From positions 15,314,001-15,378,000 of the forward strand of contig OX597816.1 in assembly GCA_951406725.2 (NCBI GenBank): 64,000 nt of DNA, written 5' to 3'. A program made the translations under genes and the position numbers. Source of the stretch: Octopus vulgaris (Eukaryota). This document shows positions 9,698 to 64,000 of this stretch, one piece after another (within the stretch, counting starts at the first letter, position 1; every line of letters starts with the position of its first letter). The notes under the pieces are model-generated. The model was not told where the DNA came from. It was given only the letters and a program-made list of their open reading frames with translations, and made no database searches.

Positions 9698-10338
9698 GTT
9701 TCTTTATTGGCCACACAGGGCTGCACACAGATGGGACAAGTTACAAGGTAGAGCTTTTCTTTTGGGGGATGAAGAGAAAAAAAACAAAAGAAAAAAAAAA
9801 GGGGTGGCGTAGGTTTTCGATCAAGAGGGATCGTAAAAGGGAAGAAAAGAACAAAAAAAAATAAATGAAATAAAAAATAAAAAAGAAAAAGAAAAAAAGA
9901 AAAGGAAAAGAAACAAAAGAAAAGAGAAATGAAAAAAGAAGAAAAAAGGGGAAAAAAAGGGGAAGAGGAAAAAAAAACGATCAATAGGGATCGTGTATCA
10001 TAGTGTTATGATATATGGTGTAAAGGGGAAAGCAAGTAAGGTTTATCCGTGGGAAGAAAAGCCTACGAAAAAGACCACGGTAACCTTGGTCAATATTGTT
10101 ATATGTTACCACATTTGTTTGCAAGTGGGTAACCCTCTGATTTCAATTTCTGGGTTCATAGGATTATGCTCAAGGTGGCTTCGTCATTCATACGTGCCAT
10201 CCTTGCTACATTCACCCATCTTTTTTTAAAACATTCGCTAGACAAAACTTGCCTCTCTACTCTCACTTTCCTTTTCAAGTGGTACTTGAAGAAGTTGATG
10301 AGAGATTGACCAGAGAGGAAAGTGTTTGTCTCCAATCC
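9698..10338 (-). mobile_element. 5'-truncated LINE 3' end (Tx1/L1-clade-like ORF2 C-terminus and 3'UTR)
   Basis: 15-bp TSD TATGATTATAGGTAA at 9683-9697 and 10339-10353. Minus-strand peptide ...FKYHLKRKVRVERQVLSSECFKKRW...SIIL* (stop 10156) resembles Tx1-type ORF2 ends. T-rich UTR ends in aataaagaaac. Confidence 0.7.
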
Positions 10339-10719: not shown

Positions 10720-11226
10720 CTAGCAGTATCGCCCGGCGTTGCTCGGGTTTGTAAGGGAAATAACTATATAAGCATTTTTAGAGAGTTACTTCCTTTATAT
10801 AGATGCCAATTCGGGCTTTCTTAGCCATTTCTGTTTTGGTGTCTTCAAGCCATGAAGTCGTTGTTCTAAAAGAACGCTGGTCTCCTTGACAACGCATTAC
10901 GACGTTGATTTCCTTAAACTCCCTTCCCCACAGCTTCATGAGGGAGGGAAGAAGGGGGAGAAGCAAACACAGGTGCAGGTGTTTGAGCGTGGATGCCAAC
11001 TCCGCCGCCATCGACACACGAAAAATTATGCATTAAAATGGAATAAAAAATGATGTTAAATTATTTTTAAAATCGTAGACTCATCGTAGACGCGCGCTAA
11101 TACTCAGACGGGCTTGATATGAATCACGACTATAAGATACCCGAATTTGGTTAAACTGCACCGCAAAATGTGGGAGGAGTTAGGAATCTAAATCGTAGGA
11201 GACAGACACACACACAACTACAGTTT

Positions 11227-16804: not shown

Positions 16805-17137
16805 ATATGTACAATACAGATACATATAAATACAATATATTTTCCAATGTTTTTTTACATTCTTAATTAAGTTACTGCTATGTACTATAGAACATGTCTA
16901 AAGATTTAGTAACCAACACTGTGTCACGACGAATGTAGACACTACGTCTATACGATATGCTCATCATAAGCGACAGTGTAATCACAAGGAAGGTACACTG
17001 CATGCCCATTGTTAAAGGAGTGCACTGGACATTGCCCCTTCACTATTCAATGGTGCATCCTCAGATTAACCCCACTTTAGTGATTCTGCTTTTGCATCAT
17101 TACAAATTAGTGCCCACCAAGAATATCTTCAAGTACC

Positions 17138-18554
17138 TATTTCTTTACTGCCCACAAGGGGCTAAAAATGTAAACATAGGTGAAATACCTATTTCTTTAC
17201 TACCCACAAGGGGCTAAACACAGAAGGGACAAACAATGACAGACACACGGATTAAGTAGATTATATCGACCCCAGTGCGTAACTGGTACTTAATTTATCG
17301 ATCCCGAAAGGATGTGTAGCAATATCGTCTCTCATTGCTATCTTCACTGTTTGAGAAGAGTATTAAGAATGACCTCGGTCGAGATTACAAACAGCTTTGG
17401 CTAGTTCAACATTGTTGTAAACACTAATTCGATTGGCTGACACGTTGGTCTCTACTACGCTCGCACCGCTGGTTATAACTTGGCGCAAAATGTCTCGACT
17501 TATTTTCGCGCCATAGTCCAAGCAGCCAATCACAGCTTTCCATTTCTGAAGTTCACTGGGAGCCTGGTGAAGCTTATAAATAAGGTTTCTCAGAAAAATA
17601 TTCGTCTTAGGTTTCTAGTTCTTCTCAGAGATAAACCTCTGACCACACAGCTCGTCTTAGGCTTTTAGTTCTTTTAAGAGCTAAGTCTCTGACCACACAG
17701 AGATACTCGACCAAGTTCCAGTTTCGAGGCAGGCGACCACCATTAATACAAGATGTTACAGATACCTCTCATACTGTTAGTGTGAAATATCACCATGAAG
17801 AAAACGGTTACAGGATATCTATAACTAGAGAAAAATAACCAAGCAGAACATATAATGAAGAAGCAGCAAGAACCAATCGACAAACATCGAAGATTTAAAT
17901 TGTACACGAGACAACTACAGATTCAACTATAGCGGTTAGGTGAAATTCTCGCCACGAAGAAAACGGCTACAGAAACATGTCTGGAAGTATATTCATATCA
18001 AGAGAAAGATAAACACAACGAGTGATTCAATTAATCTCAACTGCGACACGCAATACCTTGATATAGAACTCTTACAGTGTACCTCATAAACGGTAAATCA
18101 ATTATCTGTTTCTTGGGTTCTAGATTCTTCTAAGAACTATCTTAAGCCATCTGTTATTACCTGTTGCCAAGCCGATACCAACAACATGAACTGTGAATAG
18201 AATCCCATCGTCATTTCACTGGTCAGTACCTTTTCACGCCTAACGAACACACAGACACAAAAACATGCTAACACTTACGAACTTCCAACATCAAGCATGA
18301 TTGTAAAATATGTAAAATAAATAATGTATATATCTTAAAAAGAAAACTTGTTGTCATTGCAAACTTATGTGTATTGCCGCTGCATGTATTATATAGTCAG
18401 TAAATAAATTATTAAGAATAGGATCACGTTCTTATTTTTATAGATGAAAGGCAAAGTCGACTTCGGCGGAATTTGAACTCAGAACGTAACGGCAAACGAA
18501 ATACTGCTAAGCATTTCGCCCGGCGTGCTAACGTTTCCGCCAGCTCACCGCCTT
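17138..18554 (-). mobile_element. SINE family B (with short extra tail unit), split by a solo LTR
   Basis: The two halves join exactly across the 17315-18442 insertion. TSD AATATCTTCAAG(T/C)ACC at 17122-17137 and 18555-18570. Confidence 0.88.
17315..18442 (+). mobile_element. Solo LTR (Ty3/Gypsy-like, 4-bp TSD)
   Basis: TSD GATG (17311-14, 18443-46). Ends TGT...ATA. CCAAT motifs near 17431 and 17526, TATAAA at 17575, AATAAA at 18403. Confidence 0.72.
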
Positions 18555-19115
18555 AATATCTTCAAGCACCACCAGGCACAAAAGTCTGGAGACGGGCCTG
18601 GTACGCTTTTGATGGTGACGATTCAAACAAGAACCAAAACGTACATGCAACTGTTTCCCCCTTTTTTTGTCCACGAGTGTATTGTGTACACATAATGTTT
18701 ACATTCGTCATAACATATAGGCCTATAATAGAAACGATTATTATTTCACTTTTTAGTCAGTGATGGCAGTTACATTCAATTTTATTCATGCGTGCAAAAT
18801 ACAAAATCGTAAAAACTAGGTGGGTGACGAAAACGTCAGGAGAGAAACGAGACAGCCTTCTTTTAAAATGCCGGAAGTGGGTCAGCGATGTTATGTAGTG
18901 GTAATGATTTAAGAATTTGTCTTAGATATCATCGACAGCAAAAGCTCATAAATAACCAATTAGTGCATTCTCACACCTGTGAGAACGCACTTGTTAGGTT
19001 GCTCTAGAGTACCCCACAGCTTTCTTTTTCTATCAGTTTCTTATACTGGACCTTGGTGTACACAAAGGTACCCTTCAGTAATCTTTGTTTGGGCGTGATG
19101 AAAAACAAATCGCTT

Positions 19116-19696
19116 AAGGCGGCGAGCTGGCAGAAACGTTAGCACGCCGGGCGAAATGCGTAGCTGTATTTCGTCTGCCGTTACGTTCTGAGTTCAAATT
19201 CCGCCGAGGTCGACTTTGCCTTTCATCCTTTCGGAGTCGATTAAATAAGTACCAGTTACGCACTGGGGTCGATGTAATCGACTTAATCCGTTTGTCTCTC
19301 CTTATTTGTCCCTTCTGTGTTTGGCCCCTTGTGGGTAGTAAAGAAATAGGTATTTCGTCTGCCGTTACGTTCTGAGTTCAAATTGCGCCGAGGTCGACTT
19401 TGCCTTTCATCCTTTCGGGGTTGCTTAAATAAGTACCAGTTACGCAATGGGGTCGATATAATCGATTTAATCCGTTTGTCTGTCCTTATTTGTCCTCTCT
19501 GTGTTTAGCCCCTTGTGGGTAGTAAAGAAATAGGTATTTCGTCTGTCTTTATGTTCTGAGTTCAAATTCCGTTGAGGTTACTTTGACTTTCATCCTTTCG
19601 GGGTCGATTAAATAAGTACCAGTTTCGTACTGGGGTCGATCTAAGCGACTGGTCCCCTCCCCAAAAATTTCGGGTCATGTGTCTAGAGTAGAAAAA
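19116..19696 (+). mobile_element. SINE family B trimer (one head, three bodies)
   Basis: Units start at 19166, 19350 and 19534 (184-bp period). Meta-like core gcctttcatcctttcggggtcgattaaataagtaccag. Flanking repeat GAAAAACAAATC(G/T)CTT. Confidence 0.92.
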
Positions 19697-19824
19697 GAAA
19701 AACAAATCTCTTGTCCTTCATAAACTATTTCTTTTGCTTGTGATAAAATCTTGATACTTTTACAGAAAATTTGTCACTTGCATATTTCTATCATTTCGGC
19801 TCTTTTTATTTTTTATTTTGTATC

Positions 19825-20900: not shown

Positions 20901-21163
20901 CACTAATCATAAGGAGTATTACAAGTCCATGCTGACTCCCATCCACATTTCATTTCTCGTTTCTTATCAACCATATGTGTGTGTTGTTGTAAAGCGGTCT
21001 GTTGTATCTGTCTTTTGACGACGGTTGTCGCTCTGACAAATATTGTTATATTGCGTAGTCGTCGACAAAGTGGTTCTATCTAGCACTGTACAACCCTTAG
21101 TTGTACAGTGTTGTTATCCTCAAACGGTTGGGTCATATAACATCCACTCAGTATCACAGTATA

Positions 21164-21580
21164 TATTTCTTTACTGCCCACAAGGGGCTAAACGCAGAGA
21201 GGACAAACAAGGACAGACAAACGGATTAAGTTGAATACATCGACCCCAGTGCGAAACTGGTACTTTATGTATCGACCCCGAAAGGATGAAAGGCAAAGTC
21301 GATATCGGCGGAATTTGAACTCAGAACGTAGCGGCAGACGAAATACCTATTTCTTTATTACCCACAAGAGGCTAAACATAGAGGGGACAAACAAGGACAG
21401 ACATAGGTATTAAGCCGATTACATCGACCCCAGTGCGTAACTGGTACTTAATTTATCGACCCCGAAAGGATGAAAGGCAAAGTCGACCTCGGCGGAATTT
21501 GAACTCAGAACGTAGCGCCAGACGAAATACCGCTAAGCATTTCGCCCGGCGTGCTAACGTTTCTGCCAGCTCGCCGCCCT
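21164..21580 (-). mobile_element. SINE family B dimer
   Basis: Junction gacgaaatacc|tatttcttta near 21346. Perfect 16-bp TSD TCAGTATCACAGTATA at 21148-21163 and 21581-21596. Confidence 0.92.
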
Positions 21581-21712
21581 TCAGTATCACAGTATAATTA
21601 CTATATCAGCGCAGACACGACTATCAACACAGTCTACACATACTCTCGACCTTCATCTGTTGGCTGGCTACTACTATTTTTTTACCGGGAGGGGTGTACA
21701 ATTCCCCTATAC

Positions 21713-21886: not shown

Positions 21887-22257
21887 ATAACAAGTGAAAA
21901 GTTTGTAATAGGCATGTAGAAGATAAAATCATATATAAAACACCACTAACAGTTACAAAAATAGAGAAGAGATGTTAAATGTTCAAATTAGAATTTAATT
22001 TTCACATACGACCGTTTCGAATGATAATACCAACATGTAAGAAAAAACATAAATGGTAATACATAACTAATGTAATTATTATTATAATTAATGCTTTTTC
22101 TTACATGTTGGTATTATCATTCGAAACGGTCGTATGAGAAAATTAAATCCCAATTTGAACTTTTAACATCTTCTTCTCTCCATTTTTGTAACTGTTAGTA
22201 GTGTTTTATATAAGATTTTATCTTATACATGCCTATAACAAACTTTTTACTTGTTAT
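21887..22257. repeat. Fold-back palindrome (~165-bp arms) containing the hammerhead 3'-half motif GAAACGGUC
   Basis: 21887-22050 is the imperfect reverse complement of 22092-22257. Confidence 0.9.
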
Positions 22258-63665: not shown

Positions 63666-64000
63666 AAGGCGGCGAGCTGGCAGAAACGTTAGCACGCCGG
63701 GCGAAATGCGTAGCCGTATTTCGACTGCCGTTACATTCTGAATTCAAATTACGCCGAAGTCGACTTTGCCTTTTATACTTTCAGGTCGATAAATTAAGTA
63801 CCAGTTGACTACTGGGGCCGATTTAATCGACTATACTCCACCCCCCGCCACCATTCCAAGCCTTGTGCCTATAGTAGAAAGGATTATTTCATTCGTCTTT
63901 ACGTTCTGAGTTCAAATGCTTCTGTGGTCGACTTTGCCTTTCATCCTCTCAGGGTCGATAAAATAAGTGCTAGTTGAGCACTGGAATCGATGTACTCGGG
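63666..64000 (+). mobile_element. SINE family B followed by a head-less second unit (runs off the window)
   Basis: Head at 63666; second body starts near 63885. Confidence 0.85.

What the first reader, a model, noticed from the sequence alone, without database searches (positions are those of the whole stretch)
19116..19696. Head-less 184-bp SINE concatemers with a fixed junction: self-targeting or circular-RNA replication?
Seen: one head followed by three bodies with exact 184-bp spacing, each restarting at the same base (aaagaaata|ggtatttcgtc), all inside one TSD. Units 1-2 carry the Tx1-like tail and unit 3 a different tail. The restart point lies at the 3' edge of the loop of the head hairpin cgaaatgc...gtatttcg, and the tail gaaata is complementary to tatttc. 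The same junction recurs at 21346 and 17177. Inference, three alternatives: (a) site-specific insertion of the SINE into its own tRNA-like head by a target-specific Tx1 endonuclease; (b) loop cleavage, ligation to a 184-nt circle and rolling-circle reverse transcription; (c) programmed template jumping. The mixed tails favour (a) or (c).
Basis: partly seen in the sequence, partly recalled or inferred. Interest (0 to 1): 0.72.

Follow-up and report, generated by a model that had tools for sequence, protein, structure and literature searches.

The report
SINE inserting into its own head
A very common short jumping element in this likely octopus genome forms chains of one front end plus several bodies joined at one fixed base, likely because new copies are pasted into that base of older copies and overwrite their front end, with longer chains then likely growing by ordinary DNA duplication rather than from a circular RNA.

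Summary
The trimer is real: head, two young Tx1-tailed bodies (T1) and an older T2a body inside one 16-bp TSD. It is one case of a genome-wide pattern: 29,484 exact junctions; 68 of 157 T1 tails in 1.06 Mb join position 49 of another copy, against 0.3% expected from the loose target motif. Mixed arrays hold two ages: head and first body are T1-young; last body and outer TSD are T2a-old (TSD test p=0.029). Units of T1-T1 dimers are as unlike as random copies, which argues against rolling circles and against slippage as the origin; arrays of 4 or more units are homogenised, so DNA-level duplication adds units later. Rare two-headed and truncated insertions duplicate head positions 49 to ~66. Best reading (0.6): LINE-driven insertion into resident copies at position 49, the new cDNA's head annealing to and replacing the host head, as in R2 'annealed' junctions. 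Tail variant predicts landing site (position 49 versus 16), hinting at RNA-end pairing. The SINE-targeting LINE was not found by me. Not found in the papers searched; earlier AI notes on this genome reach a similar idea.

The parts
19100..19115 (+). 5' copy of the 16-bp outer target-site duplication
   Evidence: 1 mismatch to 3' copy
19117..19164 (+). Single SINE head (positions 1-48, A box, hairpin); carries variant 44G, seen in 29% of T1 monomers and 0 of 34 T2a monomers, so donor-derived
19165..19348 (+). Unit 1: T1 body, positions 49-232, B box, core, Tx1-like tail
19349..19532 (+). Unit 2: T1 body restarting at position 49; 94% identical to unit 1
19533..19696 (+). Unit 3: older T2a body (62T, 64T, 145T, 158C; T2a tail), inferred original resident copy
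19697..19712 (+). 3' copy of the outer TSD
21164..21579 (-). T1-T1 dimer with the same junction; the two units differ at subfamily positions; perfect 16-bp TSD at 21148-21163 and 21581-21596
17134..17314 (-). 5'-truncated T1 copy followed by 8 junction-like bases, non-SINE sequence and a second short tail piece; an ordinary target of the preferred type, not an array junction
9699..10160 (-). 3' end of a Tx1-clade LINE whose last ~40 bases resemble the T1 tail; relatives carry zf-RVT-type ORF2 ends and 9 of 12 top loci are followed by (TATC)n

Best explanation
The young T1 subfamily of this SINE is likely reverse-transcribed by a Tx1-type LINE into position 49 of resident SINE copies, and the new cDNA's head likely anneals to and replaces the resident head, leaving one young head, a new body and the old body inside the old TSD. 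Steps: (1) shown: T1 tails end at a fixed base, ordinary targets begin with a loose DRTAT motif, best GGTAT, which the head carries at 49; (2) shown: landing at 49 is more than 100-fold above what that motif gives; (3) shown in rare cases: insertion there duplicates head 49 to ~66 (second head or truncated donor); (4) inferred: full-length cDNA pairs with the 66 upstream bases, as in R2 annealed junctions, and the heteroduplex resolves mostly to the donor; (5) inferred: the junction recreates the target, so it can be hit again; (6) shown for arrays of 4+ units: later homogenisation, inferred to be slippage or unequal exchange in the 184-bp register; (7) inferred, open: the extra specificity comes from pairing of the RNA 3' end (read-through into the next unit, no T4 terminator in the consensus) with the nicked target, and/or from a LINE endonuclease that recognises the head.
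For: 29,484 exact junctions versus 22,823 exact heads and 117,733 T1 tails. 68 of 157 tails at +49; 38 of 110 T1-led elements are arrays; motif-only expectation 0.27-0.29%. Two ages in 37 T1-T2a arrays: head CpG decay 0.217 and first core 0.167 (T1 monomers 0.208, 0.185), last core non-CpG divergence 0.054 (T2a monomers 0.051; T1 0.030). Head variant 44G in 12 of 40 such heads, 0 of 34 T2a monomers (p=0.0003). Outer TSD mismatch 0.113 (26 of 42 arrays scored) versus T2a monomers 0.122 (18 of 33) and T1-ended elements 0.063-0.073 (p=0.029); mixture fits agree. Last T2a units share no private mutations (0.18 vs 0.23), so no dimer master. T1-T1 dimers 0.888 identical, random pairs 0.886. Host use falls with host age: 7 of 19 T2a, 3 of 39 T2b, 2 of 45 T2c. 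Split hosts with duplicated head sequence: 5 flagged, plus L159, L259, L260; 5 of 40 hits start a second head. Antisense landings at a GGTAC site, 4 of 157, need a DNA target. Three C28 paralogues with 97-98% identical flanks hold 1, 2, 3 units, with different foreign units.
Against: The TSD clock is noisy: 15-bp windows, about half the elements scorable, TSD versus core divergence in monomers rho 0.24, p=0.13; zero-mismatch test p=0.064; a first small sample pointed the other way (7/153 vs 11/100). Last-unit CpG decay 0.30 lies below T2a monomers 0.40. A heteroduplex would naively resolve 50:50, yet heads are almost all donor-type; the bias is unexplained. In the C28 paralogues the head was kept. 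No first-younger-than-last gradient in T1-only dimers and trimers (0.158 vs 0.180, p=0.33). 11 of 39 dimers share a rare mutation against 7% by chance. No SINE-targeting LINE found in my sample. Part of the T2a sample was picked by an exact tail pattern.
Confidence: 0.6

Rival explanations
1. RNA-level chimeras inserted in one step: the reverse transcriptase starts on a T2a or T1 RNA and switches at position 49 to the 3' end of another T1 RNA, or read-through transcripts of existing arrays are retroposed whole.
For: Explains at once why heads are T1-young and linked to the first unit (rho 0.44, p=0.005; last unit rho 0.10). Consensus unit has no T4 terminator. Unrelated dimer units fit. 5 of 26 scored T1-T2a arrays have perfect TSD windows.
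Against: Predicts young TSDs; they match T2a monomers, also in the 10 arrays with clearly donor-type heads (0.12). No shared source among last units. Does not explain duplicated head sequence in split hosts or antisense landings. The two short run-ons with a TSD end at positions 74-77 and may be tailless hosts rather than read-through RNAs.
Confidence: 0.22
2. DNA-level events only: one early junction spread by slippage, unequal exchange, or excised 184-bp circles recombining into other copies.
For: Arrays of 4-6 units 0.945 and of 7+ units 0.972 identical, with shared rare mutations in 47 of 61 and 28 of 30 adjacent pairs; chimeric units in a 6-mer. Proposed for clam and squamate arrays (PMC11481361, PMC10702118, passages).
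Against: Dimers are unrelated (1 of 39 at 97% or more). Last units are T2a-type already at positions 62 and 64, so no crossover spread through the core. Heads are donor-type, whereas circle recombination keeps the host head. Accepted for growth, not for origin.
Confidence: 0.08
3. A 184-nt circular RNA made by loop cleavage and ligation is copied by rolling-circle reverse transcription.
For: Fixed junction at the edge of a hairpin loop; six identical units in L144.
Against: Predicts near-identical units and cannot give mixed tails or two ages in one array. A head cannot come from the circle. No hammerhead core on either strand of the circularised unit; no ribozyme family match.
Confidence: 0.03
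4. Same DNA-level self-insertion, but the host head is kept and heads only look young because intact hosts are preferred.
For: Some mixed arrays have old heads (0.18-0.27 divergence); T2b/c hosts give intermediate heads; C28 paralogues kept the head.
Against: Best-case selection gives 5.2-5.5 head mismatches, observed 3.3 +/- 0.45; T1-only variant 44G at full T1 frequency in heads of T2a-ended arrays.
Confidence: 0.07

Closest known systems
Crocodilian SINEU-3 / Tx1-Mar (Kojima 2015, PMC4494074; passages read)
   Same: SINE moved by a Tx1-clade LINE into a fixed site of an abundant repeat; tandem copies by sequential insertion.
   Different: Target there is another element (Mariner-N4) and tandem copies are separated by a TSD; here the target is the SINE's own head and the join is seamless and head-less.
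R2 'annealed' 5' junctions in 28S rDNA (PMC3774820, PMC11331408; passages read)
   Same: RNA carrying upstream target sequence gives cDNA that anneals to the target, seamless junction without duplication; occasional duplicated junctions when annealing fails; junction variants can be carried by the RNA.
   Different: R2 is autonomous, uses a restriction-like endonuclease and rDNA; here a non-autonomous SINE uses its own dispersed family as target and a 48-66 nt head as homology. Annealing is inferred here, not shown.
TSD1-(SINE)n-TSD1 arrays of the blood clam (PMC11481361; abstract and passages read)
   Same: One complete head, head-truncated repeats, one flanking TSD, in a mollusc.
   Different: There inner units also lose the tail, about 3% of SINEs are in tandem or palindromic structures and recombination is invoked; here inner tails are complete, about a third of T1-led elements are arrays and units mix subfamilies and ages.
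SINE-derived satellites of squamates (PMC10702118; passages read)
   Same: Tandem repeats from part of a SINE; longer arrays more uniform.
   Different: Explains only the long arrays here; no fixed, recurrent, genome-wide founding junction in the passages I read.
Octopus OR1/OR2 tRNA-derived SINEs (Ohshima and Okada 1994; recalled, OR2 named as a CORE SINE in PMC4758252)
   Same: Likely the same family group: shared head and core with alternative tails.

Membership tests
tRNA-derived SINE | Short, high-copy, A and B boxes, no ORF | tested here: met
   232-bp monomer, 117,733 exact tails; A/B-box-like motifs read from the sequence. ARAGORN and Rfam find no tRNA, so the tRNA origin itself is recalled, not shown.
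tRNA-derived SINE | Target-site duplications | tested here: met
   16-20 bp TSDs in 23 of 73 T1 monomers and 20 of 43 T1 arrays, controls 1 and 0
Tx1-mobilised SINE | 3' tail shared with a Tx1-clade LINE | tested here: met
   18 of 30 zf-RVT loci end in a stretch 84-93% identical to the last 26-36 bases of T1; RVT_1 plus zf-RVT confirmed in L105. Tx1 rather than L1 label rests on recalled domain layout and microsatellite targeting; no tree built.
Tx1-mobilised SINE | Partner LINE shares the target site | tested here: inconclusive
   0 of 18 such LINE copies lie in a SINE head; none among 30 loci. Earlier AI notes report such a LINE; not verified.
R2-type annealed junction | cDNA pairs with upstream target, no duplication, donor variants enter the target | tested here: inconclusive
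   Outcome fits; the pairing step is not testable by sequence alone.
Non-LTR retrozyme / rolling-circle RNA | Self-cleaving ribozyme in the unit | tested here: not met
   (hammerhead core only was scanned by script)
Non-LTR retrozyme / rolling-circle RNA | Units of one array copied from one template | tested here: not met
   dimer identity equals random
Non-LTR retrozyme / rolling-circle RNA | Circular RNA exists | not testable with these tools
   no raw RNA run listed
SINE-derived satellite | Homogenised tandem units from DNA-level amplification | tested here: met
   for arrays of 4 or more units only; not met for dimers or for the focal trimer
Octopus OR1/OR2 | Sequence identity to the published consensus | not testable with these tools
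   no reference sequence held

The most novel reading that the evidence does not exclude
An RNA-guided self-homing SINE: the transcript carries both homology arms (its head upstream, a read-through or tail end matching the landing site downstream), so it directs the LINE machinery into its own family, overwrites the decayed polymerase III promoter of old copies with a young one, recreates the target at every junction and seeds tandem repeats. Each tail variant uses the head site its 3' end matches (TAG tail: 198 at +49, 0 at +16; CAA tail: 5 and 12; T2a 4 at +16).
Probability: 0.3. Interest if true: 0.8.

Novelty: new variant of a known kind. Interest (0 to 1): 0.6.

Why it matters
If right, a SINE uses its own dispersed family the way R2 uses rDNA: a harmless, abundant, self-renewing landing pad. 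It would show homology-steered, promoter-replacing insertion by a non-autonomous element at tens of thousands of sites, give a mechanism by which SINEs seed satellites, warn that subfamily ages and copy numbers from RepeatMasker-type annotation are mosaics in this genome, and offer a natural system to test whether an RNA 3' end can steer a Tx1-type endonuclease-RT, relevant to retrotransposon-based gene insertion.

Tried and rejected
Read laying: contigs of other samples and organisms run 20-30 bases into the head or cover tail plus flank, so the site is shared, but repeats swamp the array and unit number could not be read; no raw RNA run listed, no evidence on expression or circles. Search for the exact partner LINE by negated patterns returned SINE variants only; zf-RVT search gave tail-sharing families with other targets. 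Idea that GGTA belongs to the tail at ordinary sites: rejected as the general case, it stands in both TSD copies, a few downstream-only cases remain. Idea of head-less monomers from a processing site: 12 of 370 hits start at 44-56 without a T1 unit in front, mostly degraded; not a clear class. Two-head collapse by random crossover: predicts old 5' half of head, but positions 13-24 are young (0.034 vs T2a 0.111). Dimer master copy: rejected. Rfam, ARAGORN: nothing. Whole-monomer fold not beyond shuffles (z -1.63). Albertin 2015 not held. Paper searches for a prior description found none for octopus or for self-insertion; PMC13282606 (passages) gives SINE totals only. Ohshima and Okada 1994 and Repbase/Dfam were not searchable, and no supplements were read; a description there cannot be excluded.

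Full report
Observation. The window holds a head (19117-19164) and three bodies starting at 19165, 19349 and 19533, inside a 16-bp TSD with one mismatch. Units 1 and 2 have the tail I call T1, unit 3 the tail T2a. The dimer at 21164-21579 has the same junction and a perfect TSD. The site at 17177 is not a junction to a second body. The organism is likely an octopus; this rests on a recalled likeness to OR-type SINEs and on earlier notes, and I did not try to identify the record.

Scale. The exact 23-base junction occurs 29,484 times in 2.8 Gb, the exact head 23-mer 22,823 times, the T1 tail 21-mer 117,733 times, a second fixed junction at position 16 1,335 times. I analysed about 2 Mb: the window, five coordinate-chosen blocks (1,064,000 bases including the window, all near contig ends) and loci picked by patterns. 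In the five blocks 157 T1 tails end as follows: 68 at position 49 of another copy, 2 within a few bases of it, 4 at 16, 1 at 5, 4 antisense at 137, 78 elsewhere. One 20-mer supplies 19 junctions; by element, 38 of 110 T1-led elements are arrays.

Families. Four tails share head and core: T1 (youngest), T2a, T2b, T2c. The T1 tail is LINE-derived: 18 of 30 top zf-RVT loci end in a stretch 84-93% identical to the last 26-36 bases of T1, another shares positions 176-204, and a related family with a fragment in the window sits in (TATC)n in 9 of 12 loci. None of the 18 lies in a SINE head.

Target. At ordinary sites the tail stops at a fixed base and the TSD begins with a loose DRTAT motif (GGTAT 21, TATAT 22 of 151), present in both TSD copies. 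The head has GGTAT at 49. A weight matrix of that motif predicts 0.27-0.29% of insertions at 49, over 100-fold below what is seen. Tail variant predicts the site: TAG tails 198 at 49 and 0 at 16, CAA tails 5 and 12 (p=4e-16); outside SINEs, targets start with GG in 35 of 81 versus 1 of 41 (pattern-picked loci included). T2a tails are followed by a restart at 15-17 in 4 cases. Either RNA-end pairing or different partner LINEs could cause this.

Direct signs of DNA-level self-insertion. An old T2c copy split at 49 by a full T1 with its own head, head sequence 49-64 duplicated; hosts with 5'-truncated donors after position ~66-68; 5 flagged (denominator not printed), L159, L259, L260, and 5 of 40 hits with a second head. 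These are a small minority of arrays. Antisense landings also need a DNA target. Three paralogous loci on C28 hold 1, 2 and 3 units with different foreign units and a shared head; contraction or conversion between paralogues complicates this case.

Two ages in one array. In 37 head-bearing T1-T2a arrays the head (CpG decay 0.217, non-CpG 0.041) and first core (0.167, 0.033) match T1 monomers (0.208, 0.041; 0.185, 0.030). The last core is T2a-type from position 62 and has non-CpG divergence 0.054 (T2a monomers 0.051), CpG decay 0.30 (0.40). The T1-only head variant 44G is in 12 of 40 such heads and 0 of 34 T2a monomers; the focal trimer has it. The outer TSD looks T2a-old: 0.111 vs 0.119 vs 0.062, 0.153 vs 0.153 vs 0.075 without the first five bases, 0.113 vs 0.122 vs 0.063-0.073, p=0.029. 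The first, smaller sample suggested the opposite and the clock is noisy. Last units share no private mutations. Host use falls with age: 7 of 19 T2a, 3 of 39 T2b, 2 of 45 T2c.

Origin versus growth. T1-T1 dimers are 0.888 identical, random pairs 0.886; 1 of 39 reaches 97%. Trimers 0.908, 4-6-mers 0.945, longer 0.972. So the founding junction joins unrelated copies and later units are often local duplicates. This argues against rolling circles and slippage as origin. No ribozyme was detected.

Mechanism. Most likely a Tx1-type LINE nicks position 49 of a resident copy and copies a T1 RNA there; the full-length cDNA pairs with the upstream head and replaces it; failed pairing leaves two heads or a truncated donor. 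Precedent for the pairing step is R2 (PMC3774820 and PMC11331408, passages). Why the donor head nearly always wins, and whether RNA pairing or the enzyme supplies the specificity, are open. One-step RNA chimeras remain the main rival (0.22).

Comparison and novelty. SINEU-3 with Tx1-Mar stacks at a site in another transposon with TSDs between copies (PMC4494074, passages). Clam TSD1-(SINE)n-TSD1 arrays have a similar outline but truncated inner tails, low frequency and a recombination explanation (PMC11481361, abstract and passages). Squamate SINE satellites match the long arrays (PMC10702118, passages). Seven searches found no description of seamless self-insertion; subscription papers, Repbase and supplements were not seen. 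Several earlier AI notes on this genome reach a similar idea or report a SINE-targeting LINE; they are not independent support, and I could not verify the LINE. Verdict: real, genome-wide, a new variant assembled from known parts; interest 0.6.

Noticed in passing
G000:C28 block (L223-L242), three loci near block positions +6559, +11057, -185681: Paralogous segments with 97-98% identical flanks and the same TSD carry 1, 2 and 3 SINE units; a natural series for array gain or loss.
   Followed up: partly
one of the five unbiased blocks (block name cut from the output): A 20-unit array of near-identical 184-bp units with patchwork variants, satellite-like.
   Followed up: partly
L253-L258, G000:C1:15779642-15780179: T2a tail repeated six times at 101-bp spacing: a different SINE-derived tandem unit (restart near position 120, also seen with T2b).
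   Followed up: no
window 63667-64000: T2b copy followed by a head-less T2c body restarting near position 51, then further copies: older tails also join head sites by short overlaps.
   Followed up: partly
window 9699-10160 (-), 10720-11220: Tx1-clade LINE 3' end of a family that lands in (TATC)n; a second repeat lies upstream.
   Followed up: partly
G000:C2:73046133-73062761: Four zf-RVT hits about 5.4-5.7 kb apart on one strand: a tandem stack of LINE copies, two with 1140-aa open frames.
   Followed up: no
L027-region, G000:C1:1413844-1416866 (L026) and C28 block -5486: Two T1 junction-bearing elements face each other as inverted pairs with the middle missing.
   Followed up: no
window 22003-22138: Long AT-rich inverted repeat (weak miRNA-model hits below gathering scores), likely a MITE-like or foldback piece.
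   Followed up: no
window 17330-18400: High-copy repeat (contig depth in the thousands) with a 50-bp tandem at 17602-17700, not identified.
   Followed up: no
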